DNA of 62,272 bases from a bacterium (GTDB lineage: Bacteria > Bdellovibrionota_C > UBA2361 > SZUA-149 > JAQTWB01). The position numbers and the translations under genes are program-made. Shown piece after piece: positions 14,055 through 37,767 of the stretch. The notes beneath the pieces are model-generated. The model worked only from the letters and a program-made list of their open reading frames with translations, was not told the DNA's origin and ran no database searches. The first letter of the stretch is position 1; each line of letters opens with the position of its first letter. The stretch spans positions 1 to 62,272 of the forward strand of contig JAQTWB010000010.1 in the NCBI GenBank assembly GCA_028689495.1, written 5' to 3'.

Positions 14055-14144
14055 GGTCAGACCGAACGTGGTGCAACAGGTCTGGAAGGAGATCGAGATT
14101 GTTCCGGGCAAGGTCGGGCCGGCATTCTTGAAACAGGCGAACTA
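14055..14144 (+). pseudogene. 3'-terminal stub of a second yciI-like gene (…VVQQVWKEIEIVPGKVGPAFLKQAN*).
   Basis: About 85% nt identity to 12506-12583, the 3' end of the intact yciI. There is no upstream coding continuation. Confidence 0.5.
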
Positions 14145-15952: not shown

Positions 15953-17995
15953 TCAGTCAATAATTGCCTTAAGCAAAGCATCCCTTGCGTCAGAGTAAAA
16001 CTGAATATCGATCTTTGTTGCCATATCATCTGTTAAATCGATCAACTGGCGGCGACATGAGACCGGCATAAGTAACGCAGCCGCTCCTTTTTCAACTGCG
16101 ATTTCAGCAAGAGTAACCGGATTGTGCACGGGCTCAATTGAGCCCCCAAGATTTATTTCCCCAACAATTATCAGCCCACCTCGCACACTCTTTTTCAGTA
16201 GAGATGTACAAAGAGCGATTAATGCCGCTACTCCCAGTTTTGCACCGGCCTTGGAGGCATCAAATGCTCGCAGCTGTACTGTAAACTCATGTTGACGGGC
16301 ATCCTTGTCACCAACAAGTTGTGCCGAACGCGCGTAAAGGTTCTGCTCAGCATAGCCAAGACTCTCCCTGAATGCTGGCGGGACTGGTTTGTTGAGAATC
16401 TTAACCCCCGAGCCTCGGCCTTCATTTATCTCGATACGATAAAGTCCGGGATGATCGTCATTTCCCCCCGGGCTGATACTCCAGACCTGTCCTGGCTCAA
16501 GAGGGTCCCCGCCGACACAATTTTCGCTATTCAACTCGGGGGTGTTGACGAATTTTTCAACTCCATTGGCACCCATAACGTAACTAAAGTGGGTATTGCG
16601 AAACTCGGCGGCACCAATACGTTTTTGCTGTTCTTTAACCCGACGTCTTGACTCCATGGCGATACGAACTGCCCATTCGAGGTCATCCTCTGCAACATCC
16701 CCACCTCCAGGATAGAGAAGTTTTAGCAAACCACTGATTGTCTTGTTGACCGCAGTTGTATCCCGACCAGAAAGGGACCCCCCAAAGAAAACATGGTTCT
16801 GAAGGATACTAATGCGGCTCTGGCGGCGAAGCTGGCTCCAGCATTCGGATAGAAAGTCACTAACTAAACCAAAATGGTTGGTTAACAGCTCCTTGCTGAT
16901 TTTTGGCACATCCCAACCGGGCAAAAAGGCATGAATGCGATCCATGAATGCAGTATCATCTTTCATCTCCGGCGGCATTGGCCCGAACAAATGTCCGATG
17001 CGTTGCTGATGTTCCACATCGACATCGAAGTTACCAACCATCACGATACTGCCATCGGCTCGGATGCTTTCCTTGCCGCGGCTGAATTCGCCGGACTCCA
17101 TGTAGCCCTTCATGATGTTCACGCCGTCTTTCTGATCAAAAGAGATACCAGATACTTCATCAAAGCAGACTACATCGTATTGGCAGACCAATCCTCGCTG
17201 ACCAGTAGCGTTGTGGACAAACATCTGCGCAACTGTTGCTTTACCCCCAGAAATCAAGTGCGCGTACGGAGAGATTTGCTGGAATAGGTGACTTTTCCCT
17301 GTTCCCCGGGGTCCGAGTTCCACCAAATTGTAGTTACGCTCGACAAAAGGCACCATTCGCAACAACAGCGCATCGCGTTGTCGCTCGCTCAATCCGCCTG
17401 GTTCAATGCCGACAGACCGCAACAAAAATGTCTTCCACTGGTCAGTGGAGAACGACTTACGGGCCTCAGCTAACACATCAAGAACATCTCGCTTAGATAA
17501 CTGAATTTCCCGAAGGCCCGTGACTCCAAATGGTCGCCCCTTACTTTCCTGTGCAATAGTGACATCAAAGGTTAAAGTAATCTCGGCATAAAAACCGCCA
17601 GTCAACATACGCTCGTGCCGGTTAACCAATGCACCGCTTATACGAACTTCGTTTAAGCGCAGGCTAGGTAAAGTCGCGACATACTCCCCTTTATTGTCGA
17701 CACGAGCGGTAATACGGTCGATGATTTTCACCTCACCCGTTTCAAGCGCCCTGGCCTTAAAAAGCTCCTCCTCTCCCGCCTTGACCGTTCTGGATTTAAG
17801 TTGCCTCTCGACAATTTCAAGGCCCTCATTTATCTCATCCTGGTCTACGCTGGCGCAGTATCGGCCAAGTAAAAACTCAACGACGTAAGTCGGCACAGGG
17901 AACTGGCGGCTAAACGTCCGAACCAGATCCTTGCGAACCAGGTAGCCCTCTAAAGAGGATGCCGCTTTATTGTCGATTTGATCCATTTCAATCAT
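15953..17995 (-). CDS. brxL: BREX Lon-protease-like protein BrxL.
   Basis: 680 aa. The N-terminus (MIEMDQIDNKAASSLEGYLVRKDLVRTFSRQFPVPTYVVEFLLGRYCASVDQDEI) matches the characteristic BrxL start. It has an ATPase P-loop GPRGTGKSHLF and a Lon-like C-terminus. Its start overlaps the pglZ stop (ATGA). Confidence 0.85.
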   Translation of the reverse strand: MIEMDQIDNKAASSLEGYLVRKDLVRTFSRQFPVPTYVVEFLLGRYCASVDQDEINEGLEIVERQLKSRTVKAGEEELFKARALETGEVKIIDRITARVDNKGEYVATLPSLRLNEVRISGALVNRHERMLTGGFYAEITLTFDVTIAQESKGRPFGVTGLREIQLSKRDVLDVLAEARKSFSTDQWKTFLLRSVGIEPGGLSERQRDALLLRMVPFVERNYNLVELGPRGTGKSHLFQQISPYAHLISGGKATVAQMFVHNATGQRGLVCQYDVVCFDEVSGISFDQKDGVNIMKGYMESGEFSRGKESIRADGSIVMVGNFDVDVEHQQRIGHLFGPMPPEMKDDTAFMDRIHAFLPGWDVPKISKELLTNHFGLVSDFLSECWSQLRRQSRISILQNHVFFGGSLSGRDTTAVNKTISGLLKLLYPGGGDVAEDDLEWAVRIAMESRRRVKEQQKRIGAAEFRNTHFSYVMGANGVEKFVNTPELNSENCVGGDPLEPGQVWSISPGGNDDHPGLYRIEINEGRGSGVKILNKPVPPAFRESLGYAEQNLYARSAQLVGDKDARQHEFTVQLRAFDASKAGAKLGVAALIALCTSLLKKSVRGGLIIVGEINLGGSIEPVHNPVTLAEIAVEKGAAALLMPVSCRRQLIDLTDDMATKIDIQFYSDARDALLKAIID

Positions 17996-20337
17996 GTAAG
18001 ACCTCCACCAATTACTGTGGCGATTTGCGCAACCAGCGACCCACCACCATCGATCAGCACCACTGTTGCTTGCGCCCCCTCCATGTCCTCGTCTTCGACA
18101 ACAACGGAGGCCGTGCCGTTATCTTTAAGCGGTTTGCGGCCTAAGATCACACTGGACGATGAGTTACCAGCTTGGCGACGAATATCCAGTGATAAACCTG
18201 AAAAATTACCATCCACTGCCACAGTGCAGCGCAACCCCTTCCACACCACGTTGGTAAATCCGACAATTCCCGACACCGCGCTACGCGTGACCGTTAATTG
18301 CAGCGTCAGGCACTCCTGCAGGCTAAGGCCGCCATGGGTGTATTCTTCTCCGTTTTTGAAACAGCTCACACCATCAGCAAGCGCAAAATGCTGCTCCGGA
18401 TTCCAGTACCATGGATAAAGCCGCTCGTTAGAAACGGCCCCGGGTTTTAACGAGGCGCATCTGCCCCACTTGTTATCCGCTAAGGCACTGGGAAGATCGA
18501 TCTTGGGCAATCCACCCGGCAACAATAACCAACCGTGGTCGGTAACGACCCGAACACGTGCCCATCCAGCTTTTAAGAGCTCCGCGATCCGGTTCGCTAT
18601 CTCCAGAATCAGGGCATCAATGTTCCTGGCAAGTTTACACCCTCGGTTGTGACCCTCGTGGTCGATATCACCAAACTCGCACCAGGCCATGCCCTGGCCA
18701 TGGCCATCGGCAGAAGGTTTCAGAATTGACCACCCCGCATCGGTCAATAATTTCTTCAGGTGGTAGCCGCCCTTTAATGACTGGCCAGTGTCGACCACGG
18801 ACGGCTCAAAATCAGGACTTTCATCCTTTCCCCGAATTTTGTCTCGTACCGGAGTAACTGCAGCCTTACCCGTTGCCGTTACGCTCGGCAAGGCGGCCCA
18901 GATAGGCTCCTCGAAAATATCAAGCCCTCGCCCCTCCAAATACCCGACCAGTCGCTTCCCAGCATCAAAGCGGAGTCCATCAACAAACAGGATACAATCA
19001 CCAGTGCGGAATGTTTCCGTATTTGCAGTAAGGCAGGAGCCGCCAGGATAGGATGCACCATCGACCGACTTCTGAAGATAGCGAGCCGAATCCTCAATCC
19101 ACGGCAGGTAAACGCAACGGATAGCTGTCGTCACGGCCTCAAAGTCTGCAGGAATATCGACTTGAGCCAATGCCCGTATCAATCCGTCATCTACCAGCCA
19201 TCCTTGACTGCAATAACCAGCCGCGATTTCGTCAACCGAACCTGCGGCAAGTCCACTTTTCGTGTTCTCAGCAATAATCGCCAGATATTCCAATGTGCAG
19301 GCCAAGGGCGTAGCACCCAATTCGGCCCAGACTGAATTACGCCTTAACCCATGCTGGTGTTCCAGCTCGGTGATTTTAATCCTCGCGTCATGCGCAGGGA
19401 CATTGACCAGCGCCATTAGATCGCGGCGAAGACAATTCTCCTGATCATCACTCCATTGAGGCCAGCCATCTTTAGTTCCATCATCATTTAACCAAAATAG
19501 ATCCTTGCTAGGGGGCTGGCATTTTCTAATCTGTGAAGGGATATTAGGATAGCGCTTAGGCGCTTCGCAATAACGCTCCCAAACTGCCTGCCAGGGCCCC
19601 TCGTGGTTCGCTAGGCGGGTCGCACCAGCTAACAGACCGTCGTTGTCAGGGTTAAAAATCAATTGTGACTTGCAAACCTCAATGAAAGCTTTCCATTCGT
19701 TCTCACCACGGCTCGCTTGAAACGCATCCCCCCGATCAAGCCACTGCAGCAAATCTCGAATCGGGTCGCCACCTGTCAACAGGGTGTTGAAGTAATCTTT
19801 ATCCAGACGCTTGCCCCTCAATAACGAAACATCCTCATCGAGAAGGCGATACAGCGCGAGTTGCATGGCATTCTTGGCATCGTTATCCTGGGCCACGTCC
19901 AGCCCAAGACCACCTTGTTCGGATTTCAAATAGGCCAGGATTGTCCAATCCTTCGCATTTATTTGTGACCAGATCACGCCCCGGTATTGCAGTTCAGCAA
20001 GCGGCTTCAAGTTGTCCGGGCAACTTTCAATAGCCCGCAGGTCCTGTCGGCTGACGCCCGGCAGATAAAAAATCGGTGTCCGATCCTTGGGCAGAGAAAC
20101 ACCCTCGGCATAACCAGCCATCGCGCAGCGCAGCCAAATCGCCGGCCCAGTGCGCTTGTCTGGCGCATAGTCGCCGAGAATCAGCAGTTCAGGCAGCTCT
20201 GCCTGAAGAACGGGAATGACGGCTTCCCACTGTCGCTCGCGATCCGGCCACAGAATACATGCAGGTGCGACCTGAGCCTCCGGGTTGAACACTGCGGCAT
20301 CGCGAATGGATTTCAGGAGATGATCAAGCACTCTCAT
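17992..20337 (-). CDS. pglZ: BREX alkaline-phosphatase-superfamily protein PglZ (BrxZ).
   Basis: 781 aa. Lies between the pglX-side genes and brxL in canonical BREX type 1 order. Its first ~70 aa are duplicated at 23141 and 25197. Confidence 0.8.
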   Translation of the reverse strand: MRVLDHLLKSIRDAAVFNPEAQVAPACILWPDRERQWEAVIPVLQAELPELLILGDYAPDKRTGPAIWLRCAMAGYAEGVSLPKDRTPIFYLPGVSRQDLRAIESCPDNLKPLAELQYRGVIWSQINAKDWTILAYLKSEQGGLGLDVAQDNDAKNAMQLALYRLLDEDVSLLRGKRLDKDYFNTLLTGGDPIRDLLQWLDRGDAFQASRGENEWKAFIEVCKSQLIFNPDNDGLLAGATRLANHEGPWQAVWERYCEAPKRYPNIPSQIRKCQPPSKDLFWLNDDGTKDGWPQWSDDQENCLRRDLMALVNVPAHDARIKITELEHQHGLRRNSVWAELGATPLACTLEYLAIIAENTKSGLAAGSVDEIAAGYCSQGWLVDDGLIRALAQVDIPADFEAVTTAIRCVYLPWIEDSARYLQKSVDGASYPGGSCLTANTETFRTGDCILFVDGLRFDAGKRLVGYLEGRGLDIFEEPIWAALPSVTATGKAAVTPVRDKIRGKDESPDFEPSVVDTGQSLKGGYHLKKLLTDAGWSILKPSADGHGQGMAWCEFGDIDHEGHNRGCKLARNIDALILEIANRIAELLKAGWARVRVVTDHGWLLLPGGLPKIDLPSALADNKWGRCASLKPGAVSNERLYPWYWNPEQHFALADGVSCFKNGEEYTHGGLSLQECLTLQLTVTRSAVSGIVGFTNVVWKGLRCTVAVDGNFSGLSLDIRRQAGNSSSSVILGRKPLKDNGTASVVVEDEDMEGAQATVVLIDGGGSLVAQIATVIGGGLT

Positions 20338-21373: not shown

Positions 21374-22635
21374 GCCAGCACTAGGGCTTTGCTACCCCTA
21401 GCCGCCTCTTGAATAATTGTTGCTAATGCTGCTGTTTCGGCTTTGTGCGTTCCGATATAACCGGAACGGATCAAACTGAGCATGTCGGCTTCTCGGAGAT
21501 AGGTTCCATCCAACGCTTTGTAACTGAGACGAACGCCACCCTTAGGGCCTCTGGCCTCAGGGGCAGCAAGGATCTGGTTCAGATGGTCGAGAGAGACAAG
21601 AAACGATTGATGCGTATCGTCTACGATCTTGCGCTTCACAAATTTGAAGAAAAATGGATTGCGGCTCAGCCTGTAGTCACTCAAAGAACCATCAAAGTCA
21701 GGAAGTCTCATGCGGGCAATTTCATCGCGCAACTGCTTGTCAGGACGAAACAACCAATCACGGTTTTCACTCTCTTGCTTGTCTTCCTCAAGCATCTTGT
21801 ACTGGAGCATAACAATATTGCCCCGGGTTTCGTTGATGTAGATGAGGTCAACGCCCAGCATCTGCTCCAAGGGCAATTTGTTAGCGGTGTAAATCACCAG
21901 CCGTTCGTCAGCCCTTTGAAAGACGGCTCGCCCGGTCACATCAGCGGAGATCGCATCGAATCCGGGGAAGCGCAATGAATCCGAATGCACTACGTTGTCC
22001 TCAAAGAGGTGAGCTCCGATAAGACCAAGACCAGATGATGCGCCCTTCTTGAGGGTAACCTGATCCGGTATGGCACTGCCCCGAATTCCAAAAGCTGCCA
22101 TTGCCGACTTAATGGCATCCTCCTGTGCCCAGAAGGTGTTCGTCACGCGCCTCAACCGTGGCAAAAGGGAAAGAGCTGTATCCAGGGCAGATTGATTGTC
22201 GGAATCCGCCGCCAGAAGTTCGACCAGACGAACGCTGAGTTTGGGTGAGAGGCTTGTAATCGCTCCTTGAGCAGGTAGTCGTTTGCCCAGCAAACGCTTC
22301 ATTCGCGAATCAGTGAGCAACGCCTCTATCGACTGAAGAGAATTGGGGTTCAAGGCCCGCAGTTTCTTAATAGTTAGACGAGATTCGAAGGTGCTCACCG
22401 CCGCTTTTTTAGTGGCAGTGGCCATATAGCACTTGGTTGAATCACCTTCCTGCATTTCCAGCAAACAAAGCGTTGGCAGCTTGATAGCCAGAAGTACAGA
22501 ATGTGGTTTTACCAAAGTAAGGAGCTCGAACCCATGCTGCAAATTCTGGAAGGATTCAGACATAGCCTCATCGAAGCGAATCAAGATCAGGGGTTTCTTC
22601 TGAACCCATTTTGCGATCTTGACTGCTGCACTCAT
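21343..22635 (-). CDS. Hypothetical protein. Cargo module 3, gene a.
   Basis: 430-aa ORF. Its ATG overlaps the stop of the preceding junction duplicate (ATGA). No confident domain. A weak D...E.K pattern (GVDLIYINETRGNIVMLQYK) is noted only. Confidence 0.4.
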   Translation of the reverse strand: MSAAVKIAKWVQKKPLILIRFDEAMSESFQNLQHGFELLTLVKPHSVLLAIKLPTLCLLEMQEGDSTKCYMATATKKAAVSTFESRLTIKKLRALNPNSLQSIEALLTDSRMKRLLGKRLPAQGAITSLSPKLSVRLVELLAADSDNQSALDTALSLLPRLRRVTNTFWAQEDAIKSAMAAFGIRGSAIPDQVTLKKGASSGLGLIGAHLFEDNVVHSDSLRFPGFDAISADVTGRAVFQRADERLVIYTANKLPLEQMLGVDLIYINETRGNIVMLQYKMLEEDKQESENRDWLFRPDKQLRDEIARMRLPDFDGSLSDYRLSRNPFFFKFVKRKIVDDTHQSFLVSLDHLNQILAAPEARGPKGGVRLSYKALDGTYLREADMLSLIRSGYIGTHKAETAALATIIQEAARGSKALVLAWQQKVQETA

Positions 22636-23141
22636 TCGGCGACCTCCCTTGCAGCGCGTTTTTCCTTCAAACTCGGGTGGTGGTCGTTGATGCGGTCGCC
22701 GTCAAAGACGTGATACCAGGGGGCGGATGCGACGTCCTTGACATAGCAGGCTCTGAGGAAAAATGAACGAAACCAAATAAGATTAAAAAGGTAGCCAGAG
22801 TTTCTAGCTCCGGCATTCGCAACGAACCCAACAAACCGCCGCCGTATCGTAGTGTAGCCAGACCAGGATGGTCTGGCTACCATCGCGCTCGGGCCGTAGG
22901 GGGTTATTGGATTCATCAGCTCAATTCGTGGGGATACCTCAATAGCGGGCCCCGTCCGCTTTTCCGGCGCATAGTCGCCGAGAACCAGCAGTTCCGGCAT
23001 CCCCGCCTGAAGAATGGGAATGACGGCTTCCCACTGTCGCTCACGATCCGACCACAGAATACATGCAGGTGCGACCTGAGCCTCCGGGTTGAAAACTGCG
23101 GCATCGCGAATCAATTTCAGGAGATGATCAAGTACTCTCAT
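22632..23141 (-). pseudogene. Junction duplicate 2. It contains the pglZ 5' end (~200 bp, ~90% identical to 20140-20337), a ~175-bp spacer with palindromic E-elements, and a copy of the pglX 3' end (…VKDVASAPWYHVFDGDRINDHH…).
   Basis: The first 72 aa are nearly identical to the PglZ N-terminus (MRVLDHLLK.IRDAAVFNPEAQVAPACILW.DRERQWEAVIP.LQA..PELL.LGDYAP.KRTGPAI) and then diverge. The 3' 60 bp match the last 60 bp of pglX. Almost identical to 24688-25197. Confidence 0.7.
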
Positions 23142-23144
23142 ACG

Positions 23145-23681
23145 TCACGTTTCCTGTGCACTGTCTATGAGGCCATATGTTGTGGCCAGTGAATCATTAA
23201 TAACAGCTACAGAGACTGGCGAAAGTCCCCAGGTCTTTATTGTCGATCGTAAGGCTTTTAAAAGAGCATCATGCAACGGTGGCAACCATGCATCCTTATG
23301 CCCGTTGATGACCAAAACAAACTTCGCATCCGCTTGTGACAAATCGAGTTTCTTAAATTCATCGGGTAATTCCGAGGCAGCTTGCGGATGCCGTCTAAGA
23401 ATTGCTGCCCATCCCAAAGAAAAAGCATTGACGAGTTTCTCTCGGATTTCGGCAATAAAATCATCAAAGTTCGGCTGAGTTTTAGGGTGGGGCGTGCTGG
23501 ATTTAGCCTCAACAATCCAAATAACTGATTTACCGTTACTTACTTGCAACAGCAGAAATTCCGCCATCTGGACATGATCTTTAATTGCGGCATAGCAATT
23601 ACTCTTTTCTACACGAAAACAATAGCCATCCGGGTAAGGACCAAATGTCATATCAGATTCGATAATAGGTTGGGTCGTCAT
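23145..23681 (-). CDS. Hypothetical 178-aa protein. Cargo module 2, gene b (partner of the ATPase).
   Basis: The ORF overlaps the ATPase gene end by 4 nt. No recognisable motif. Confidence 0.4.
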   Translation of the reverse strand: MTTQPIIESDMTFGPYPDGYCFRVEKSNCYAAIKDHVQMAEFLLLQVSNGKSVIWIVEAKSSTPHPKTQPNFDDFIAEIREKLVNAFSLGWAAILRRHPQAASELPDEFKKLDLSQADAKFVLVINGHKDAWLPPLHDALLKALRSTIKTWGLSPVSVAVINDSLATTYGLIDSAQET

Positions 23682-24691
23682 TTGAGCGTCAACCCCACTT
23701 CTTCTTTATACAGACGAATCGACTCATCGATTATCGGGTTATCAGGCATTCCGCTCTTCAGATCAGAGGTCTCCCATTTATTAGTGGAGGATGAGATAAC
23801 AGGAATGGACACTCCCTTTTCCTGGGCCAGAAGATAGAGCTTTTTCACCACAAAATACGAGTGGCTTGCGAGAAAAAACTGAATGCCGCGCTCCGCCAGT
23901 ACGGCGATAATATCTAGCAACTCGGAGATCGCTGTCGGGTGGAGCGCCGACTCCGGTTCATCAATAAAAACAATCGAGTGGATATCCAGGTAACGGTTAC
24001 TCAGCAAGGTATCCAGAATGGCAATCTTCTTGATGCCTTCCGCTGTTACACCAATAGGAAACTTCTGATTACCCTTTTTAAACTGCCAGCGTCCTGAAAC
24101 TTCATCGTATTCAACTTTGCCGCCAAACATATCTTCCAACCGTTTTCGTGAATCGGAAAATTCCTTAAAATTTTTACCACGCTGTGGCAACTGTCTTAAC
24201 GCGCGAGTTAGATCGAGATACGTATCATCAAAGCCAAATAATTTATCCTGCTCGCGAGATTTAAGAATAATCTGATGCAGCGACAGCACCTCTTTGGCCG
24301 GCAAAAAAATAGAATTGCTGCTTCTAGGTGGGATGTGATTTTCCAGAGATGCGATCTGTTTAGTTGTGTCTTTTCTGAATTTATAGCTGAATCCGTTGCG
24401 CTCAAATTCCATCTCAAAGGACAATGATCCGTCAGCACCTTTTGTCACAAGCTCGCCAATTTTGTCGGCTTGAAAGGTCCAGTATAACTTGTCGGCAAGA
24501 ATCTCTGACGCGGACTTGAGCTCATCACCACGTTTATACTCCTCTATTGTTCGCATTGCGGAATAGAGAGCTTTTAAAAGAAACGTCTTACCTGTACTGT
24601 TGCCTCCTAAAACCAAGTTAATTTTACCTAACTGATTCCAGTGAAGGTCGGTCAAAGGTCCGAAGTTTTTGAGTCCTATCTTGTTAATCAT
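23678..24691 (-). CDS. ABC-type (AAA_21/SMC-like) ATPase. Cargo module 2, gene a.
   Basis: Walker A GGNSTGKTFLLKALY; Walker B/D-loop IVFIDEPESALHP; H-loop LASHS. 337 aa, the compact size of defence-associated minimal ABC ATPases. Its ATG overlaps the upstream stop (ATGA). Confidence 0.7.
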   Translation of the reverse strand: MINKIGLKNFGPLTDLHWNQLGKINLVLGGNSTGKTFLLKALYSAMRTIEEYKRGDELKSASEILADKLYWTFQADKIGELVTKGADGSLSFEMEFERNGFSYKFRKDTTKQIASLENHIPPRSSNSIFLPAKEVLSLHQIILKSREQDKLFGFDDTYLDLTRALRQLPQRGKNFKEFSDSRKRLEDMFGGKVEYDEVSGRWQFKKGNQKFPIGVTAEGIKKIAILDTLLSNRYLDIHSIVFIDEPESALHPTAISELLDIIAVLAERGIQFFLASHSYFVVKKLYLLAQEKGVSIPVISSSTNKWETSDLKSGMPDNPIIDESIRLYKEEVGLTLK

Positions 24692-25197
24692 AACTTCTCT
24701 CCCAAGCTATTCTTTTTATCTTCTAATTTCAGGTGGTGGTCGTTGATGCGGTCGCCGTCAAAGACGTGATACCAGGGTGCAGATTCCACGTCCTTGACAT
24801 AGCAGGCTCTGAGGAAAAATGAACGAAACCAAATAAGATTAAAAAGGTAGCCAGAGTTTCTAGCTCCGGCATTCGCAACGAACCCAACAAACCGCCGCCG
24901 TATCGTAGTGTAGCCAGACCAGGATGGTCTGGCTACCATCGCGCTCGGGCCGTAGGGGGTTATTGGATTCATCAGCTCAATTCGTGGGGATACCTCAATA
25001 GCGGGCCCCGTCCGCTTTTCCGGCGCATAGTCGCCGAGAACCAGCAGTTCCGGCATCCCCGCCTGAAGAATGGGAATGACGGCTTCCCACTGTCGCTCAC
25101 GATCCGACCACAGAATACATGCAGGTGCGACCTGAGCCTCCGGGTTGAAAACTGCGGCATCGCGAACCGCTTTCAGGAGATGATCAAGAACCCTCAT
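24688..25197 (-). pseudogene. Junction duplicate 1: pglZ 5' end, spacer with E-elements, and pglX 3'-end copy (…VKDVESAPWYHVFDGDRINDHH…).
   Basis: As for 22632-23141; the two duplicates are ~98% identical to each other. Confidence 0.7.
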
Positions 25198-25231: not shown

Positions 25232-28200
25232 TCATTCGCCCTCCTGTTCGTTTTCGGCAATAACTCGCCTAGCCTCTCGATCGTATCCCTCCGCCAAACC
25301 TCTTAAGATTGCTGCAAATCGCTGAAACCCTGCATTCTCAACTTTCTCGGCTTTAATTCGGAACTGTTCTGCGAATTCTCTCTCCGGCTTCCCGGTTGGG
25401 TCAACCCAACGAACACCGCGTGAGTTGTATATCCCCGTCCTGAAACCGGCGCGCATATTATCAGCTTCACGGTCATTTAATGCGTCAGCGACAGTGCGGT
25501 GTATCCATAATCCGTCTGGGTGCGGTGGGGTATGAATCAATACTTCGCCAATATTGCTGAGAGCAACTTCCAGGTGGCCGGACTCCGTACAGACTTCTTT
25601 TACCCTCTTGAGCCAGTCTATAAAACTCTCTTCGCTGAACGTTCCATCCTTCTGTGTTCCCGGCGGTGTCTTCCACTGATGCAGTAGCCGCCAGGCGTTT
25701 GCTGCTATCGCCTTTTTCTCCTCAGTGGGGTCTGTCAATGGCGGATCTTCATTTTTGGAACGGTAAATCAATCGAATGACCTCACAAAAGAACTCGGGGT
25801 CATTCGCCAGTCTGCTTTCAAGGAGTTGGGGCGCCGCTCCTCTATGATGGTCGAGCAAGGAAACATACGCCCACTCAACTCTAAAGAGGTCTTCTTCATT
25901 GACTGAAGGCTCTGCCTGAAGAAACTGGATCAATTCGACAATGTCGTGCTCGTCCATAACATAGCGCGGCTCATTGGAGGACAGCGCAGCAAGCAACGCT
26001 CTGACACATTGACTACTATCGATAGGTTGCTTGGCATGGCGCATCTTGTCCAGGCAGCCTATCGCCGCGTGTGGTCTGCCGTATTCAAGGAGCTTCTCAA
26101 CTGCCATCTCAAGATCACCATCAGCCTGATAGGCATTCGCGCCAGTGCGAGTCCAGTATTCTCTCTCTTTCGCCTGAAGCCATTCAGAGGCGCGATCCCA
26201 TGCTCCCCGAATAAACGGCAAACATGCCAGGAACTGTCCTACTTGTTCTGGTGACCAGTCGGATTTATCGATATCGTCGCACCACTCCCAGCCTTTGAGG
26301 AGATGACTCCGCCAGATAAAACCACTCACCAACGCCGTGTGCTTATCGTCCGCGGAATCCAGGAAGTGGGGCAAAAAGGTCCGCTCAATGATTGAGTCGG
26401 CAATAGCGCCAAGCGCGTGCCCTACCTGCCTGGGAGCAGAAACTGATTCGGCAAATCGAATCAAACCCTCCGCACAATCTTGCTGAAAAATTTCCGAAAT
26501 GGCCGTTTCACGTCGGGTATCGAGTTTCTTGCGCTGTTCCTCCCAATCGCCATCTTCTTCATAAAGATCGAAATCGCGATCCGTAAAAAGATGCTGATAT
26601 AAGTTGAACGGGTTGGTGGGGGCGAGTAGCTCAGCAACCTGTTCAATGCGGGTAATCAGCTCATCTGACAATGCCCATTTTGCATCGGAGAACCGGCGGT
26701 GTTTGTTTGTGAATTTTGCAAGATGGTCCCAAATCAAAAGTCGCTGCTCTTCGGGAAGCGCAGCGATGGGTAGGGAAGCAAGAACATCGAGTAGTTGATC
26801 AAAAGCTGATTTAGGCAGGTGATCAAAATGATCAATCAATGCAGAAAGCCTAGCGGTATCTTCACCAGCGGTCTCCACCGCAAGCTCCGCGTAAAAAGTT
26901 GCCTGCTGCCAATATTCTTGCGTCGTCACATCCCCCCAATCATCGGGGATTATCTGACGCCAAATTGGTTTGTGCGACCCAGAGGAAATCTGGCGCTGGC
27001 CGGGTAAAAGCTTATTAATCAAGTTCCATGCTATATCAGGATTCTCACGAAGAATTGTCTGCACTGCGGCTTGGCGCTTTTCAACCCCTGCCAGCGTTTG
27101 CGGAAACCAAGGAAGCAATATAGCGGTGAGCGAATTGAATGGTCGATTGTCCCAATTACCCCCCGGATCATGGCTGGCAAGGTCGGCAAGCGCAACACAA
27201 ACTCGAACGAGATATTGTTCATCCCATGCCAGCCCCTCTAACGCCCAAAGGAGGCCGGTCAGATAATTCCTTCCAAAAATCCCCCCATCCTCCTCATTGA
27301 AGAGGTCTACAAATGGACAAGAACTTTGCTTGAGCGCAAACTCGACCGCATCGAGAAATTGCGTTGGCGCCACTTCGGCCAAGATGGGTAATAAATCGTT
27401 GACGCTTCCCCATCTCTTCCAATCCGCCTCCTCGAAAAGCTCTCTTATAAACGAGGCGCAGATCGTCTCTGTCTTATCGGGCGAACACTGCTTACAAACC
27501 TCGGGGTAACTCCCAATGATGGCTAACCCTTCAGCAATACCCTTTCGCAGGTCCTTGGAGCTTTTTAATACTTTGCCATAAATGCTTGCAGCACTTCTAT
27601 CGTCAGCCGGCAGCTCAAATATGGGATCACTCTCCGTCATGATCCTCAGAGCAATGCTCCTAAAGGTATCGAGATCATTATCCAAAATACGCGACCCCAG
27701 CATCCTCCAAAGCTCAACTCGATTACCAACTTTCCAGATGCCGTTTTTGAGAGACAACGGACTATCAGGGGTGTGCAATATCTCCCGTGCCTTCTTGAGC
27801 CAGGCGTCATAACTGACACCGAGCAGTTCGGTTATTGCCTCACGGTCGCATTCACTCTTTTCGTTCCAGCTACCAATCAGGATTGCTTGTGTCAGACAGG
27901 TGGCGTCTGGGTGATGAGTCCACACACTGGAAATCTCTATTGCTTTTGGATTGGCAGTTATGTTTATATTGTTGACTGCCGCTTTAACCACAATAAGGCA
28001 AATTTCCGCCGTATATCGATCCGGATTAAAGTCCTCTTTCATTTGTTGATATGGATGAATGTAATTACGGAAATTTCTTAAGGTCTGACCGAACTGCTTA
28101 ACATCTTGCCTTACAATTCCAAGATCGTGTGCGACATTAATGAACTGCTCGAGACTCCAGTCTTTAAAGTCTTTGCTCTTTCCTCTCTGATCTTTCGGTG

Positions 28201-28471
28201 ATTGTGTTGATCTATTAAAGTCCGCAGGTTTCTTATTAGCCAATCCAATAAGTAGACCCTCTAATAGAGAGCCACAAAGTATAATGGTTGCCAGGGGCGA
28301 ATGTGGCAAACAACGCTGCGCTTCAATAAAACGTTCCTCAAGAAGACGCACGAGTTTTGGATCTAATAATGAAGATGGAAGAGACAGTTCTTCAACTGCT
28401 TCGGCAGCGTCTTTAGGTACTGGTGCAATTAGAAGGGTGTTCAGCTCTTCTTGCTTCATATTACCACTCAC
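25232..28471 (-). CDS. Large uncharacterised protein (1079 aa) with a possible N-terminal HEPN-like domain. Cargo module 1.
   Basis: The start codon shares its A with the pglX stop. The N-terminal ~170 aa carry GSLLEGLL...RNFRNYIHP (Rx6H). The remainder is W/L-rich and looks helical. No catalytic motif recognised. Confidence 0.5.
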   Translation of the reverse strand: MSGNMKQEELNTLLIAPVPKDAAEAVEELSLPSSLLDPKLVRLLEERFIEAQRCLPHSPLATIILCGSLLEGLLIGLANKKPADFNRSTQSPKDQRGKSKDFKDWSLEQFINVAHDLGIVRQDVKQFGQTLRNFRNYIHPYQQMKEDFNPDRYTAEICLIVVKAAVNNINITANPKAIEISSVWTHHPDATCLTQAILIGSWNEKSECDREAITELLGVSYDAWLKKAREILHTPDSPLSLKNGIWKVGNRVELWRMLGSRILDNDLDTFRSIALRIMTESDPIFELPADDRSAASIYGKVLKSSKDLRKGIAEGLAIIGSYPEVCKQCSPDKTETICASFIRELFEEADWKRWGSVNDLLPILAEVAPTQFLDAVEFALKQSSCPFVDLFNEEDGGIFGRNYLTGLLWALEGLAWDEQYLVRVCVALADLASHDPGGNWDNRPFNSLTAILLPWFPQTLAGVEKRQAAVQTILRENPDIAWNLINKLLPGQRQISSGSHKPIWRQIIPDDWGDVTTQEYWQQATFYAELAVETAGEDTARLSALIDHFDHLPKSAFDQLLDVLASLPIAALPEEQRLLIWDHLAKFTNKHRRFSDAKWALSDELITRIEQVAELLAPTNPFNLYQHLFTDRDFDLYEEDGDWEEQRKKLDTRRETAISEIFQQDCAEGLIRFAESVSAPRQVGHALGAIADSIIERTFLPHFLDSADDKHTALVSGFIWRSHLLKGWEWCDDIDKSDWSPEQVGQFLACLPFIRGAWDRASEWLQAKEREYWTRTGANAYQADGDLEMAVEKLLEYGRPHAAIGCLDKMRHAKQPIDSSQCVRALLAALSSNEPRYVMDEHDIVELIQFLQAEPSVNEEDLFRVEWAYVSLLDHHRGAAPQLLESRLANDPEFFCEVIRLIYRSKNEDPPLTDPTEEKKAIAANAWRLLHQWKTPPGTQKDGTFSEESFIDWLKRVKEVCTESGHLEVALSNIGEVLIHTPPHPDGLWIHRTVADALNDREADNMRAGFRTGIYNSRGVRWVDPTGKPEREFAEQFRIKAEKVENAGFQRFAAILRGLAEGYDREARRVIAENEQEGE

Positions 28472-31400
28472 TAAGTTAATTTCCTCGCATCGCCTTTTAC
28501 TTCCAGGGTCAAGTGGTGGTCGTTGATTCGGTCGCCGTCAAAGACGTGATACCAGGGTGCTGATTCAACATCCTTACCCCGGTCCTTATTCCAGTTGATG
28601 TTGGGTTTGTCGCGCAGGACGCCTGCGCCTTTCTTGCCGACATCGGGCACGCTGAGGAAGGGGCGGATGTTGAGGCGAACACCGTCGTTGAGATCGGGGT
28701 CCCAGCCGATGGGCTGTTTTTCCAGTGGTTTCCAGCGAACAAAGATGTCATAGGGCGCTTGGCCTTCGAGAATCAGCTCCAGCTTTTTCTTGAGGCTTTC
28801 TGCTGCGGCTAGGCGTTCCTGGGCTCCGTCCACTTTACTGGCGATGTCCTGTTTCTGGCGGCTGATCCAGTCGCCCAGATAGGTATATATCAGGGTTTCA
28901 AGCAGCTTGGCGTCGAGCTTGTGGTAGTTGACCAGGGCGGCGAATCCGTCTGGCAGGCCATCCCAGATGTGCCAGATGAAGGGGCGATGCTGGAACAGCT
29001 TGCAGTGCTGAGTGAAGAACTTCTCCCGCAGCCAGGTCTCCAGTGTCTTGCCCGCGTGATCGGCGCTTTTGAGCAGCGCGGCCAGGGGAACGGTAGCCAG
29101 ACCATCTTGGTCTGGACTTTCAGAAGAATTACCAGAGCTAGAAGCTCTGGCTACCTTGTAGGCGGCGGCCAGCAGGTTCAGCAGGCGGTCGGACGCAGAT
29201 GCTTCACCCCGTACCGGCGGGATGCAGACGATGCCGTCATCATCAGCGTAGCTAGATAGGCTTTCGCAGCGCTTAACCCATTCGCGCTGCTCCTCGGCCA
29301 GTTCCATGCTGGCATCCAACTCGGCAGGCCAACGGTAGCCGAGGAGTCGGGCAACTGCGACTTGCAGCACGGTAGCGTCGGTGCGCAGAGTTGAAGCGGA
29401 TTCCAACCGCTTTGTTTCTTCATTCCAAACTACCGAACCACACGGATGGCCGTGGAAGATCCATTGGGTGGGGTCGTTGGTGTAGGGTTTAGGGAGACCG
29501 TTCGGATATTTTTCTTCTGCGACTTTTGTCCAGCGGTCGAGGTCAAAGGGGACTTTTGTTATTGTCGCGGCGGTAACCTTTAATGCTTGGTCGACAGCGC
29601 GAACGTTTTCATGGAACACATCTGACTCTACATAAGCAAAAATTGCAGGAATAACATTCTCGGTAGATGGGCAAATCGGACATATGTTGTCATCGAAAGC
29701 CTCACCATTATAAAGAAATGGCTCTAACTTTCTCATTTTGTTGACAACAACGCCTCTACGACAAAAAACACTTTGACCGTGTAGGCGGCATCCAAGCTGC
29801 GTGTTTAGCTCGACATCATCTAAGGGAACTTTGCAAAGCTGTGAGCGACCAGTCCATGGATTTCCAGCATTTGGTGAGTTAAGCCAATAAACATGGGTCT
29901 TTTCGCCCTCGGGGAACTCCCAGAAGTACATCAAAAACCTTGGCCCATCCCCAGTTGTGCTTCCTTTTCCATAGTCAGCTATTTCAGCTAGTAGAGGCAG
30001 ACTTTGAAACTTTTCAAAGCCAACCCTAGCATCCGGATTCTCCAACTGCTTCGCTTGCTCAACGCTCTTGATTTCTGCCGTCCGCAGTTGCGCCGCTTTT
30101 TCGGTAGCGGTGCGGGGCTCGGAGACATCAACACCGCGAATCAGGTTAGGAGCAGCATCGTGGTGTGGCCTGTCGCCTTCAGACCAGAGCTGGAAGCTCT
30201 GGCTACCTTCTGCGCCACGGCTGAGGATGATCATTGCTACGAACGCACCCGCTGCCGCTGACGAATCAAATCCGCCTTCACCCAACCGCGCTATCAGATG
30301 CCAGGTGTCTCTCTTTAGCAGCTTCTCGCGGAATTTTTTGTAGCTGGTCAGGAAGAGCCAGTTCTGTGGCAAGACGATGCTGGACGTGCCGCCCTCAACG
30401 CAAAGTTCCAAACAGCGCTCGAGAAATACAGTCGCCAGATCGTTCTTCGCCGCCGGATAGTGTCTTTCGCAGAAATCCCTCAGTCCCTCAGTTTGCTTGC
30501 CTCGCGCCAGATATGGCACATTGGTGATGACCCAATGATATCGCTGTGCGAGCAGGGTTACAGCTTTTGCTACGCCGCGCGCTACCACGGCTGTCTCGTG
30601 ATGTTCAAAAGGAGCTTCGGCACCAACAGCCTGCTCCAACACCTGGCACACATCGTTCCAACCAAAACCAAAGTTATTTTTAGGCCCGACAAGCTCGGAT
30701 GCCTCTGTTTTGTGTGGGTCTATCAAACTTCCCAGTATAGGTGCCCGAGCAAATAGATCGTGTAGAATCCCCAGCGCTAAATATATGTTCTGCTTCCGAG
30801 CACCAAGTTGACGCCATTCCTCTCGACTCATAGTTACCGACAACCCAGAGCAGGCCAGATGAAGTTCAGGCAGCACACGGTAGCCACCGGCGTTCGGGTA
30901 TTTCCAGGCGGTCAGCGCCAGGGCAAAAGCGGCCAGCTCCACGCAACGCTGATCCAGTTCCAGACCATGGATGTTTTCCCTCAGCACCGCATCAACTGCG
31001 TCCCTGGCCGACAACCCCTCGCGCTCCATGCGCATCGGCACCAGCATCAGGAAGGCTGCCACCAGGAAATGGCCCGAACCGCAGCAGGGGTCGAGGATCT
31101 TCAGATCGGCAAGTTGCTCCGGCCAGCTGTCAAAGGTCCCAGCCGCCGGCATAAAGGTAGCCGGACCATCCTGGTCTGGCACCTCCAATCCAGCAAATTC
31201 CTCCGACCCGGGTGTTATGGTAGCCAGACCATCTTGGTCTGGCCTCTTCCAACGCCACTTCCAATCGCCCAACCCCGCTTTATCGGGGTTATCCCACGTG
31301 TACTGGATCTGAAAAAAATACTCTTTCTCAGACCTGATGATGTGGTTGTAAGCGTCTTCCTGCCATAAATGACCCTTTCGACCCAGATACTTATTGGCCT

Positions 31401-32760
31401 CATTAGCGGTGAAAGACTTCCAGGAATGTATAATTCCGGACAGCTCCCATCCTTGATGGGGCTCCACAATGACATGCACATGATTGGGCATTATGCACCA
31501 GGCGTGCAATTGATAACGCTCCCCATCAAAATAGCGCAAAGCATTAGCGACCATATCGGCAATATCCGGGTTGACGAGACAACATTCGCCAGCTCCCGAA
31601 TCCAGGAAAGCCTCAATTCGTTCGGAATAAAGGAACTGGATGCGCTTTTGCTCCTCTTCATTGAGGGGGCGATTGGCAAGGATAGCCTGATCTTCGATCG
31701 CTTTGCGTTCCGCAAACCAGGCATCACGTTTGGCAGAGGGGACCGAATCAGCAAGACGAAAACAAACATGGTAAATGGCCCGGTCGCAGGTCCAATGCGG
31801 TAAATTTTCGCCTTTTGTGATTGAGAGAGAAGTTTCGTCCAATCCCGGGATGCTGAGAAGGCCAGACCAGGATGGTCTGGCTACCTTTTCGCGGCACCGA
31901 TGCGTCTGTGGCTCGCTGGGGATGCCAGAGCTTCCAGCTCTGGCGACAACAAAACGCAGATAGTCCAGCGGCACACCGGGGATAGCCGCCTTCCGGCGCA
32001 GTTCCTCTTCGCTGCTGGCGTTTTTAAGGTCGGCTTCGCTGAGCCGTCTTGCCGCCCACCAGGCGCCCAAAGAGTTGTCGAGCAGGAAGCTGACCATATA
32101 GGGCTCGGTGAAGAGCTGGGTGACGGCAGGCAACTCCCTGCTGCCTATCTTAACTTCCGATTTGTTGATCCGTTCTTTATTGTCGGCCTGCCAGAACTGA
32201 TAGACCCAGCCCAAAGAATCCGAGGCAGTGAAAACCGGAAGCTCCAGATCCGCCACCAGGCGCTCGAGTTTTTGCTGATGCTCGGGTGGCAAGCTCAGTT
32301 GGAATACCGGCGAGTCGAGCCGGAAGATCTGCGGCAGCATGCGGGCAGCAAACCGGGCGGCCAGCTCCCAACCGTTAGCCGCGCCTTCATCGGCGGCGAG
32401 GTCTTCACACTCTTCGAGGGTGACTGCTACTGGATCGTCCGGGTCGGGATACATCAGCAGATTGTTCTCGGCCAAAAATCGCGCGAATAGCATGCGGTGC
32501 CAGTGCTCGTAGGCAACCTCTTCGATCAGGCGATCCATGGTTTGAATCTTGCTGCCATTGAGTGAATCACCCAGTTGCCGGCCGTGAACGCGCAGCTTAC
32601 GGCGCAGCTCCCGTTCCTGTTCGCTCAGGTGCGCAAAGGGCGCGGTTTCACCCACGGCAAGCTGTTCCAGCGCGGCTCGGGCAGCGTCCTCGGCAATATC
32701 ACGCGCATCTTTGATGGTGCGTTCGAGTCGGTTTCTCAATGTTTTGTCGAGCGGCTGCAT
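28471..32760 (-). CDS. pglX: BREX adenine-specific DNA methyltransferase PglX, enlarged to 1429 aa by in-frame palindromic insertions.
   Basis: Methyltransferase motif I DPCCGSGHFLVAAF and motif IV NVPY (VITNVPYLARGK). It sits between brxC and pglZ. At least six ~26-bp palindromes are inserted in frame. Confidence 0.85.
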   Translation of the reverse strand: MQPLDKTLRNRLERTIKDARDIAEDAARAALEQLAVGETAPFAHLSEQERELRRKLRVHGRQLGDSLNGSKIQTMDRLIEEVAYEHWHRMLFARFLAENNLLMYPDPDDPVAVTLEECEDLAADEGAANGWELAARFAARMLPQIFRLDSPVFQLSLPPEHQQKLERLVADLELPVFTASDSLGWVYQFWQADNKERINKSEVKIGSRELPAVTQLFTEPYMVSFLLDNSLGAWWAARRLSEADLKNASSEEELRRKAAIPGVPLDYLRFVVARAGSSGIPSEPQTHRCREKVARPSWSGLLSIPGLDETSLSITKGENLPHWTCDRAIYHVCFRLADSVPSAKRDAWFAERKAIEDQAILANRPLNEEEQKRIQFLYSERIEAFLDSGAGECCLVNPDIADMVANALRYFDGERYQLHAWCIMPNHVHVIVEPHQGWELSGIIHSWKSFTANEANKYLGRKGHLWQEDAYNHIIRSEKEYFFQIQYTWDNPDKAGLGDWKWRWKRPDQDGLATITPGSEEFAGLEVPDQDGPATFMPAAGTFDSWPEQLADLKILDPCCGSGHFLVAAFLMLVPMRMEREGLSARDAVDAVLRENIHGLELDQRCVELAAFALALTAWKYPNAGGYRVLPELHLACSGLSVTMSREEWRQLGARKQNIYLALGILHDLFARAPILGSLIDPHKTEASELVGPKNNFGFGWNDVCQVLEQAVGAEAPFEHHETAVVARGVAKAVTLLAQRYHWVITNVPYLARGKQTEGLRDFCERHYPAAKNDLATVFLERCLELCVEGGTSSIVLPQNWLFLTSYKKFREKLLKRDTWHLIARLGEGGFDSSAAAGAFVAMIILSRGAEGSQSFQLWSEGDRPHHDAAPNLIRGVDVSEPRTATEKAAQLRTAEIKSVEQAKQLENPDARVGFEKFQSLPLLAEIADYGKGSTTGDGPRFLMYFWEFPEGEKTHVYWLNSPNAGNPWTGRSQLCKVPLDDVELNTQLGCRLHGQSVFCRRGVVVNKMRKLEPFLYNGEAFDDNICPICPSTENVIPAIFAYVESDVFHENVRAVDQALKVTAATITKVPFDLDRWTKVAEEKYPNGLPKPYTNDPTQWIFHGHPCGSVVWNEETKRLESASTLRTDATVLQVAVARLLGYRWPAELDASMELAEEQREWVKRCESLSSYADDDGIVCIPPVRGEASASDRLLNLLAAAYKVARASSSGNSSESPDQDGLATVPLAALLKSADHAGKTLETWLREKFFTQHCKLFQHRPFIWHIWDGLPDGFAALVNYHKLDAKLLETLIYTYLGDWISRQKQDIASKVDGAQERLAAAESLKKKLELILEGQAPYDIFVRWKPLEKQPIGWDPDLNDGVRLNIRPFLSVPDVGKKGAGVLRDKPNINWNKDRGKDVESAPWYHVFDGDRINDHHLTLEVKGDARKLT

Positions 32761-37748: not shown

Positions 37749-37767
37749 GCCTTGATTGGTTGGGCGT

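What the first reader, a model, noticed from the sequence alone, without database searches (positions are those of the whole stretch)
23145..24691. Cargo 2: a compact ABC-type ATPase plus a 178-aa partner, with a two-gene abortive-infection-like architecture
The ATPase carries Walker A GGNSTGKTFLLKALY, the D-loop FIDEPESALHP and an H-loop LASHS, i.e. the AAA_21 or SMC-like minimal ABC ATPase seen in many two-gene anti-phage systems. The partner overlaps it by 4 nt and has no motif I can name. The pair is bounded on both sides by the duplicated pglZ/pglX junction modules.
Basis: partly seen in the sequence, partly recalled or inferred. Interest (0 to 1): 0.6.

Follow-up and report, generated by a model that had tools for sequence, protein, structure and literature searches.

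The report
Known HEC-02 defence pair inside BREX
The two genes are a real, intact copy of HEC-02, an already catalogued two-gene anti-phage system made of an ABC ATPase and a small PD-(D/E)xK nuclease, sitting as one of three cargo cassettes between pglX and pglZ of a type 1 BREX locus; the pair is ordinary, but the way the cassettes are stacked is less so.

The parts
23678..24691 (-). HEC-02 ABC ATPase, 337 aa. Motifs: Walker A G29-x4-G34-K35-T36; degenerate signature T216-A-E218-G219-I-K221-K222; Walker B D244-E245; D-loop S248-A-L-H251-P252; H-loop H277.
23145..23681 (-). HEC-02 partner, 178 aa: a small stand-alone PD-(D/E)xK-fold nuclease. Putative catalytic residues are E41 (start of beta2) and E58-A-K60 (end of beta3). 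E8, E25, K82, N85 and H128 are also conserved.
23678..23681 (-). ATGA overlap of the ATPase stop codon and the partner start codon, implying translational coupling.
   Evidence: Seen in the sequence. The same CAAATGA junction is present in 7 of 7 orthologous loci checked.
24692..24722 (-). Leader of about 31 nt belonging to the cassette. It contains a GGGAGAG Shine-Dalgarno-like stretch upstream of the ATPase ATG.
   Evidence: Nucleotide homology to the non-BREX copy L110 starts at window 24722. Sequence.
24688..25197 (-). Junction module A, upstream of HEC-02. A chimeric 169-codon ORF made of pglZ codons 1-67 (24997-25197), a 201-nt spacer (24796-24996) and a pglX 3'-end remnant (24688-24795). 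I interpret it as a recombination scar and not as a gene.
   Evidence: PADLOC PglZ E=3.6e-25 on aa 2-68 and PglX on aa 135-164. NCBIfam BREX_PglZ_1_B on aa 3-67.
22632..23141 (-). Junction module B, downstream of HEC-02. Same composition: pglZ codons 1-67 (22941-23141), spacer (22740-22940) and pglX 3'-end remnant (22632-22739).
   Evidence: PADLOC PglZ E=1.4e-24 and PglX E=3.3e-5.
22942..24796 (-). The exchange unit: pglX-3' remnant (108 nt), HEC-02 and pglZ-5' remnant (201 nt).
   Evidence: Aligns as one colinear block (77% identity, 1878 nt) with the intact pglX end, HEC-02 and pglZ start of L007 8869-10739.
24913..24933 (.). REP-like palindrome GCCAGACCAGGATGGTCTGGC in spacer A. The identical copy in spacer B is at 22857-22877.
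   Evidence: 6 matches in the window against 0.01 expected. The other four are inside pglX, three of them flanking its RAYT insertion.
24850..24870 (-). Terminator-like hairpin GCCGGAGCTAGAAACTCTGGC followed by a T-run in spacer A. The identical copy in spacer B is at 22794-22814.
   Evidence: This is a consensus match only, and function is untested.
28471..32760 (-). Context: resident BREX-1 pglX. The cargo array begins at its 3' end.
   Evidence: PADLOC PglX E=0.
17992..20337 (-). Context: resident BREX-1 pglZ (type B). The cargo array ends at its 5' end.
   Evidence: PADLOC PglZ E=0 and NCBIfam BREX_PglZ_1_B E=3.5e-283.

Best explanation
The pair is an intact member of the HEC-02 anti-phage system, consisting of an SMC/Rad50/PtuA-like ABC ATPase (the ATPase component, 337 aa) translationally coupled to a small PD-(D/E)xK nuclease (178 aa). 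It is carried as a horizontally exchanged cassette in the pglX-pglZ gap of a complete type 1 BREX locus. The most likely mechanism follows the pattern of other ABC-ATPase/nuclease defence dyads. The ATPase dimerises through ATP-dependent head engagement and acts as the sensor and gatekeeper. The nuclease is the effector and cuts nucleic acid through E41/E58/K60 once a phage cue is detected. This gives a second layer of immunity that does not depend on BREX. Shown here: the family assignment, the folds, conservation of all catalytic motifs in both proteins, strict gene pairing with a conserved ATGA overlap, purifying selection, and recurrent embedding in BREX-1 and type I R-M loci. Shown in the literature, for a 28%-identical homolog only: protection against several coliphages, with both genes required. 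Inferred and not shown: that the two proteins form a complex, what the trigger is, whether the substrate is phage DNA, host DNA or RNA, and whether the outcome is abortive infection.
Confidence: 0.85

Rival explanations
1. This is a refinement of the best explanation and not a replacement for it. The pair would be a PARIS-like guard of BREX. Its ATPase would specifically sense phage anti-restriction proteins that disable BREX or type I R-M (Ocr-type DNA mimics or similar) and then release the nuclease to abort infection.
Against: The pair is also found alone in unrelated chromosomal sites and on a plasmid (L005, L009, L110, L010). The tested HEC-02 protected E. coli MG1655 deltaRM, a host with its restriction-modification systems deleted and HEC-02 as the only system supplied. 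The effector is PD-(D/E)xK and not the AriB TOPRIM. The AriA hit comes from a model that behaves like generic AAA_21.
Confidence: 0.2
2. The pair would be a toxin-antitoxin or addiction module (the Pfam name for AAA_21 is 'putative AbiEii toxin, type IV TA'). Its main role would be to stabilise the BREX island or the cassette itself, not to sense phage.
For: The Pfam AAA_21 annotation, the two small overlapping genes, the presence on a plasmid next to a recombinase, IS26 and other TA genes, and frequent horizontal transfer.
Against: The Pfam label is a family nickname and not a test. AbiEii proper is a nucleotidyltransferase. A homologous pair gives phage defence and needs both genes. Neither protein resembles a known antitoxin, and the large family of uniform length under strong purifying selection fits an enzyme pair.
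Confidence: 0.07
3. The pair would be an integral accessory subunit of this BREX system, for example supplying the missing nuclease or an ATP-driven loader for PglX/PglZ, and not an autonomous system.
For: It has the same orientation as the BREX operon and tight, overlapping gene boundaries with pglX and pglZ in L007. It recurs at the same BREX position in several loci.
Against: It is absent from the canonical six-gene BREX-1 described in the literature (abstracts listed). It is interchangeable at the same site with unrelated cargo, namely the 430-aa + DUF3644 pair and the 1079-aa protein. It also occurs in a type I R-M locus and alone, and the tested homolog works without BREX.
Confidence: 0.04
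4. The pair would be a housekeeping DNA-repair ATPase-nuclease pair (RecF/RecN/SbcCD-like) or an ABC-transporter ATP-binding subunit with an accessory protein.
For: There are weak sub-threshold NCBIfam hits to RecF and to many transporter NBDs, with E from 2e-4 to 1e-2 and scores far below cut-offs. SMC, Rad50 and RecF are structural neighbours.
Against: All of those hits cover only the Walker A or the Walker B/D-loop segments, at 15-25 bits against cut-offs of 170-850. No permease, binding protein, Mre11/SbcD or coiled-coil insertion is present. The distribution is patchy and defence-island based, and the best matches by more than 100 orders of magnitude are defence models.
Confidence: 0.02

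Closest known systems
HEC-02 (Hma-embedded candidate 02; Payne, Hughes, Fineran & Jackson 2024 preprint; PADLOC-DB v2), tested example from Dickeya dianthicola NCPPB 3534 (WP_024108366.1 and WP_024108365.1)
   Same: The architecture is the same: an ABC ATPase of about 340 aa, then a PD-(D/E)xK protein of about 170-180 aa, overlapping and co-oriented, embedded in a larger defence system. The ATPase is 28% identical over 304 aa. The nuclease shares E8, E25, the acidic residue at the start of beta2, the ExK motif, K82, N85 and H128. Both proteins are best hits to HEC-02 models.
   Different: It belongs to a different subfamily. The window proteins hit PDLC04214 and PDLC04221, whereas the tested proteins hit PDLC04146 and PDLC04145 best. 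The host system is BREX-1 and not Hma. The first catalytic acid is Glu and not Asp. This subfamily has not been tested experimentally in anything I could find.
Septu and retron-associated PtuA/PtuB (retron Ec78, Ec83, Eco7)
   Different: The PtuB effector is an HNH nuclease, and the partner here has no HNH match. PtuA models hit only the C-terminal third of the ATPase at about 1e-11. No retron RT or ncRNA lies nearby.
PARIS (AriA/AriB)
   Different: AriB is a TOPRIM/DUF4435 protein that cleaves tRNA, whereas the partner here has a PD-(D/E)xK fold and no AriB match. Sensing of Ocr is untested.
OLD-family ABC ATPase plus PD-(D/E)xK REase dyads embedded in BREX (NAR 2026, PMC12839542)
   Same: This is the same described class: an ABC ATPase paired with a stand-alone REase-fold nuclease inside BREX core loci, proposed to be backup effectors.
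NERD domain nucleases (Pfam PF08378)
   Same: Both have the PD-(D/E)xK fold and an ExK motif. Payne et al. call the HEC-02 small protein NERD-like on the basis of structure superposition.
   Different: There is no sequence match to PF08378 for the window protein or for any of 37 homologs, even at E<=10.

Membership tests
HEC-02 (PADLOC-DB v2) | The ATPase matches a HEC-02 ATPase model over its full length. | tested here: met
   PDLC04214 E=1.1e-164, aa 1-336 of 337. PDLC04213 gives 3e-61 and PDLC04146 gives 2e-43.
HEC-02 (PADLOC-DB v2) | The small partner matches a HEC-02 nuclease model over its full length. | tested here: met
   PDLC04221 E=3.6e-66, aa 1-172 of 178. Three further HEC-02 partner models also hit, and no other family does.
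HEC-02 (PADLOC-DB v2) | The two genes are adjacent and on the same strand. | tested here: met
   4-nt ATGA overlap, conserved in all orthologous loci checked.
HEC-02 (PADLOC-DB v2) | Homology to the experimentally tested Dickeya pair. | tested here: met
   ATPase: 28% identity over 304 aa, E=2e-33. Nuclease: weak, with hhalign E=0.011, but the tested nuclease hits the window family's model PDLC04221 at 8.9e-6 and the catalytic columns align.
HEC-02 (PADLOC-DB v2) | Anti-phage activity that requires both genes. | not testable with these tools
   Reported only for the Dickeya homolog.
ABC ATPase superfamily (SMC/Rad50/RecF/OLD/PtuA-type soluble heads) | Walker A, signature-like motif, Walker B, D-loop and H-loop in order, plus the ABC head fold. 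| tested here: met
OLD-family ABC ATPase clade | Closer to OLD, GajA and AriA than to other ABC clades. | tested here: inconclusive
PD-(D/E)xK nuclease superfamily | Restriction-endonuclease-like alpha/beta core with an acidic residue at the start of beta2 and (D/E)xK in beta3. | tested here: met
PD-(D/E)xK nuclease superfamily | Metal-dependent nuclease activity. | not testable with these tools
   No biochemical test was possible.
NERD (Pfam PF08378) | Sequence match to the NERD profile. | tested here: not met
   No Pfam hit at E<=10 for the window protein or for 37 homologs.
PARIS (AriA/AriB) | The partner is an AriB TOPRIM/DUF4435 protein. | tested here: not met
   The partner hits only HEC-02 models in PADLOC and nothing in Pfam. 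Its fold is PD-(D/E)xK.
Septu (PtuA/PtuB) | The partner is an HNH nuclease (PtuB). | tested here: not met
   No PtuB or HNH hit. PtuA models cover only about aa 204-285 of the ATPase.
Gabija (GajA/GajB) | ATPase fused to TOPRIM, plus a UvrD-like helicase partner. | tested here: not met
   The ATPase is 337 aa with no TOPRIM domain, and the partner is 178 aa and not a helicase.
HEC-01 / RloB-type (ATPase + DUF4276) | The partner is a DUF4276/TOPRIM-like protein. | tested here: not met
   No DUF4276 hit. HEC-01A models hit only the C-terminal part of the ATPase at 1e-13 or weaker.
AbiL (AbiLi/AbiLii) | AbiLi ATPase together with an AbiLii partner. | tested here: not met
   AbiLi hits at 2e-20, more than 140 orders of magnitude weaker than HEC-02, and there is no AbiLii hit for the partner.
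ABC transporter module | A neighbouring permease or substrate-binding gene, and an NBD above the curated family cut-off. | tested here: not met
   All transporter NCBIfam hits score 14-24 bits against cut-offs of 195-850. No membrane component lies next to the pair in any of 9 contexts.

The most novel reading that the evidence does not exclude
The junction modules flanking HEC-02 would be more than inert scars. Under this reading, the pglX 3' end and pglZ 5' end act as portable homology arms that travel with each cargo, so the pglX-pglZ gap of BREX-1 works as a homology-driven, integron-like stacking site. Cassettes would be added one after another, each addition leaving a pglZ'-spacer-'pglX joint. 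Cassettes flanked by near-identical 484-nt direct repeats, such as HEC-02 here, could pop out or amplify. The REP/RAYT element that has invaded this locus (a RAYT in frame inside pglX, with REPs in both joints) might take part in forming the joints.
Probability: 0.3. Interest if true: 0.55.

Novelty: already known. Interest (0 to 1): 0.2.

Why it matters
The pair matters little in itself. A standard PADLOC run would label it HEC-02, and finding OLD/ABC-ATPase plus REase dyads inside BREX is published. It does add a clean, intact example of the untested BREX/R-M-embedded HEC-02 subfamily. It also gives a confident structural assignment of the small protein with a defined catalytic triad to mutate. 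The HEC-02 mechanism (trigger, substrate, abortive or not) is still open. The surroundings are more useful. Three different cargo cassettes are stacked at one BREX site and separated by identical pglZ'/REP/'pglX joints. The HEC-02 unit is colinear with an intact pglX-HEC-02-pglZ locus elsewhere. pglZ 5' remnants accompany HEC-02 in three other loci, one of them outside BREX. Together these give a concrete, testable picture of how embedded defence genes are exchanged between BREX loci.

Tried and rejected
(1) E. coli origin: megablast of the region against 5,426 complete E. coli genomes found nothing. The window is a whole 62,272-bp MAG contig labelled only 'bacterium'.
(2) Naming the partner by sequence: Pfam at E<=10, NCBIfam, and Pfam on 38 homologs gave nothing relevant, so NERD membership by sequence is rejected.
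(3) Sequence search of the ATPase against PDB chains gave only one marginal hit (E=0.006). Fold comparison was needed instead.
(5) Phage carriage: tblastn of the partner against 50,697 phage records gave no match. Only one plasmid hit was found.
(6) Do the pglX-3' and pglZ-5' remnants cluster by the cargo they accompany? Pairwise identities of the short arms were inconclusive, and some values were artefacts of end-free alignment.
(7) Looking for the junction spacer elsewhere: exact 25-mer and 23-mer probes against JGI metagenome contigs found nothing. This test is insensitive to divergence.
(8) A second, decayed HEC-02 in L003 (split ATPase plus a 176-aa ORF between brxC and pglX): the 176-aa protein is not a homolog of the HEC-02 partner (hhalign E=0.65).
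(9) Later mechanistic work or a renaming of HEC-02: none found in the searchable library.
(10) Promoter scan: there was no excess of sigma-70-like sites in 20-29 kb (8 found against 9.3 expected), so nothing can be said about cassette-specific promoters.

Full report
**1. What is there**

On the minus strand, a 337-aa ORF (23678-24691) is followed by a 178-aa ORF (23145-23681). The stop codon of the first overlaps the start codon of the second in ATGA.

They are Walker A G29-GNST-GKT36, Walker B IVFID244-E245 followed by the D-loop SALH251-P, and the H-loop LASH277-S. A degenerate signature motif, TAEGIKK (216-222), is also present. All of these are invariant across 33 homologs.

Both proteins have large families. 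The ATPase has 3243 relatives at E<=1e-10. The partner has 679 relatives in the word-indexed search and 1076 clusters at 50% identity in an exhaustive profile search, nearly all of them stand-alone proteins of 165-185 aa.

Synonymous sites against most orthologs are saturated. Against the nearest ortholog (L007), dN/dS is 0.04 for the ATPase and 0.15 for the partner. These are real, constrained genes. The window is a complete MAG contig annotated only as 'bacterium', with the two proteins named 'ATP-binding protein' and 'hypothetical protein'.

**2. What it is**

PADLOC-DB v2 assigns both proteins, end to end, to HEC-02. The ATPase hits PDLC04214 at E=1.1e-164 and the partner hits PDLC04221 at E=3.6e-66. 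No other family matches the partner. Pfam sees only AAA_21 and AAA_15 in the ATPase and nothing in the partner.

HEC-02 was defined by Payne et al. (bioRxiv 10.1101/2024.01.29.577857) as an ABC ATPase plus a NERD-like PD-(D/E)xK protein found embedded in Hma systems. The Dickeya dianthicola version reduced plaquing of several coliphages in E. coli MG1655 deltaRM, and both genes were required. A BREX/DISARM/R-M-embedded cassette family was later 'incorporated into the HEC-02 model'. I could not confirm that this cassette family is the window's subfamily.

I compared the window pair directly with the tested one. The ATPases are 28% identical over 304 aa (E=2e-33). The small proteins are about 24% identical and only weakly related in a profile-to-sequence comparison (E=0.011). 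However, the tested nuclease hits the window family's model at 8.9e-6, and a multiple alignment superposes E8, E25, E41 (on D43 of the Dickeya protein), E58-x-K60 (on E56-x-K58), K82, N85 and H128. The window pair is therefore a different subfamily of the same system, and its activity is inferred, not demonstrated.

**3. Structures**

The invariant E41 sits at the start of strand 42-48, and E58-A-K60 sits at the end of strand 51-60. This is the canonical placement of the catalytic acid and the (D/E)xK motif. No homolog reaches Pfam NERD by sequence (0 of 38). 'NERD-like' is therefore a statement about fold only.

The most conserved stretch of the family, aa 126-166, is the least confidently modelled. 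I interpret this as a probable interaction surface, which is an inference.

**4. Context**

The window holds a complete BREX-1 locus:
- brxA 38306-39235
- brxB 37768-38343
- brxC 34308-37853
- an embedded 533-aa gene, 32770-34371
- pglX 28471-32760
- pglZ 17992-20337
- brxL 15953-17995

Between pglX and pglZ lie three cargo cassettes. Cargo 3 is a 1079-aa protein. Cargo 2 is HEC-02. Cargo 1 is a 430-aa protein plus a DUF3644/PDC-S19 protein.

Elsewhere the HEC-02 pair is found in these settings, always adjacent and with the ATGA overlap:
- between pglX and pglZ in L001, L002, L003 and L007/L008
- between hsdS and hsdR of a type I R-M system in Desulfovibrio inopinatus (L004)
- alone at unrelated chromosomal sites (L005/L006, L009, L110)
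- on a Comamonas plasmid next to a recombinase and IS26 (L010)

It was not found in phage records. No transporter component lies next to it anywhere. The cassette has lower GC (about 0.44-0.47) than the BREX genes around it.

**5. How it most likely works**

By analogy with PARIS, Septu, Gabija and OLD, and on the evidence above, the ATPase is the ATP-dependent sensor and gatekeeper and the PD-(D/E)xK protein is the nuclease effector.

Shown:
- the folds
- intact catalytic motifs in both proteins
- obligate gene pairing and purifying selection
- defence-system context
- in a distant homolog, phage protection that needs both genes

Inferred:
- that the two proteins form a complex
- what the trigger is
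- what the substrate is
- whether the outcome is abortive infection

A PARIS-like role as a guard triggered by anti-BREX or anti-R-M proteins is attractive given the embedding. It is weakened by the stand-alone copies and by the fact that the tested system worked in a host with its restriction-modification systems deleted. TA/addiction, BREX-subunit, repair and transporter readings are all less well supported (see the rival explanations).

**6. The flanks**

The two 'junction modules' (24688-25197 and 22632-23141) are 169-codon chimeric ORFs. Each is built from three pieces:
- codons 1-67 of pglZ, 91% nt-identical to the resident gene
- a 201-nt spacer carrying a REP-like palindrome (GCCAGACCAnnnTGGTCTGGC) and a terminator-like hairpin with a T-run
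- the last ~30 codons of pglX

The two copies are 100% identical over about 390 nt.

The block from 24796 to 22942 consists of the pglX remnant, HEC-02 and the pglZ remnant. It aligns as one colinear 1,878-nt segment with the intact pglX-HEC-02-pglZ of L007. Each unit between spacers therefore looks like a slice cut from a simpler BREX locus.

Extra pglZ 5' fragments also sit upstream of HEC-02 in L001 and L002. A 52-aa PglZ N-terminal remnant follows the HEC-02 copy in L110, which is outside any BREX locus. The same three cargos recur in different combinations: L001 has cargo 1 plus HEC-02, and L002 has a cargo-3 ortholog (66% identical) plus HEC-02.

This pattern fits cassette gain by recombination through the conserved pglX-3' and pglZ-5' arms, with imprecise or Campbell-type events leaving duplicated arms. 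I could not establish the mechanism, and I did not find the joint elsewhere.

One caveat applies. Two perfect 390-nt repeats 2,056 nt apart in a metagenome-assembled contig mean that the copy number and order of the HEC-02-plus-junction unit depend on the assembler.

**7. Verdict**

The pair is an already catalogued system (HEC-02). It is none of PARIS, Septu, Gabija, AbiL or RloB-type, and it is not a transporter module. Novelty is 'already known' and interest is low (0.2). The cassette-stacking architecture around it, and the RAYT/REP invasion of pglX, are the more unusual features and are listed separately.

Noticed in passing
window 28471-32760 (pglX), insertion at about 31180-31930 (aa ~277-527): PglX is 1429 aa, against 1125-1146 aa in orthologs. 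The extra ~250 aa is an in-frame insertion encoding a RAYT-like HUH tyrosine transposase (Pfam Y1_Tnp 5e-7; NCBIfam REP_Tyr_transpos 4e-17; motifs MPNHVHVIV and AYNHIIRS). REP palindromes flank it at 31861-31881 and at 31160-31180/31223-31243, and a further REP lies at 29096-29116 inside the coding sequence. The ORF stays open throughout. Whether this PglX is still functional is unknown.
   Followed up: partly
window 22632-23141 and 24688-25197: The junction modules are chimeric pglZ(1-67)/REP+terminator spacer/pglX-3' scars. They are 100% identical to each other over about 390 nt, but only 91% and about 82-88% identical to the resident pglZ and pglX ends. HEC-02 is thus flanked by 484-nt direct repeats that could mediate pop-out or amplification of a 2,056-nt unit. 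The possibility of an assembly artefact is not excluded.
   Followed up: partly
L001 8831-8966; L002 8670-8845; L110 2947-3129: Extra pglZ 5' fragments accompany HEC-02 in other loci. They lie upstream of it in two BREX loci that carry a second cargo, and downstream of it in a non-BREX location (60-aa ORF MRVLDHFLKAFRN...). This shows that the cassette can carry a pglZ arm with it.
   Followed up: partly
window 20363-22635 (cargo 1): A 430-aa protein with no family hit, followed by a DUF3644 protein (PADLOC PDC-S19, E=2e-168). The same two genes occur together between pglX and pglZ in L001. PDC-S19 is listed as a single-gene candidate, but here it looks like a two-gene cassette.
   Followed up: no
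window 25232-28471 (cargo 3): A 1079-aa protein with only a weak N-terminal DUF4145 hit (E=0.003, below the cut-off) and no PADLOC match. A 66%-identical 1179-aa ortholog occupies the same BREX position in L002, again upstream of HEC-02. It may be an uncatalogued BREX-embedded defence candidate.
   Followed up: partly
window 32770-34371: A 533-aa gene embedded between brxC and pglX. Counterparts in L001 and L002 carry SLFN_AlbA_2 + HATPase_c_4 domains. PADLOC gives only weak hits to pAgo-associated models.
   Followed up: no
window 39818-41527: A 569-aa GmrSD/BrxU-like protein (PADLOC HEC-05, E=4e-47) lies just upstream of brxA, adding another defence layer at this island.
   Followed up: no
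PADLOC-DB models PDLC04145 and PDLC04146: The A/B labels are swapped for the original Dickeya-derived HEC-02 models. PDLC04146 'HEC-02B' is the ATPase and PDLC04145 'HEC-02A' is the nuclease, whereas the later models (PDLC04213/04214 = A = ATPase; PDLC0422x = B = nuclease) use the opposite convention.
   Followed up: yes
Genome-contig scan, L011-L090: The REP palindrome GCCAGACCAnnnTGGTCTGGC is concentrated in a few MAGs. About 20 loci come from one Desulfobacterales MAG (CAXXIG01), and there are several each in Desulfobacteraceae, Lentisphaeraceae, Poribacteria and Bradymonadales MAGs. This is a hint, and no more, about the lineage of the unnamed source bacterium.
   Followed up: no
L003 3825-5388: Between brxC and pglX, L003 carries a second ABC ATPase split into two ORFs (227 + 124 aa), followed by a 176-aa protein that is not related to the HEC-02 partner (hhalign E=0.65). 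It is a different and possibly decaying ATPase dyad.
   Followed up: partly
window 12506-12574 and 14068-14136: A 69-nt direct repeat, 90% identical, with copies 1,562 nt apart, lies downstream of the BREX locus. It is unexplained.
   Followed up: no
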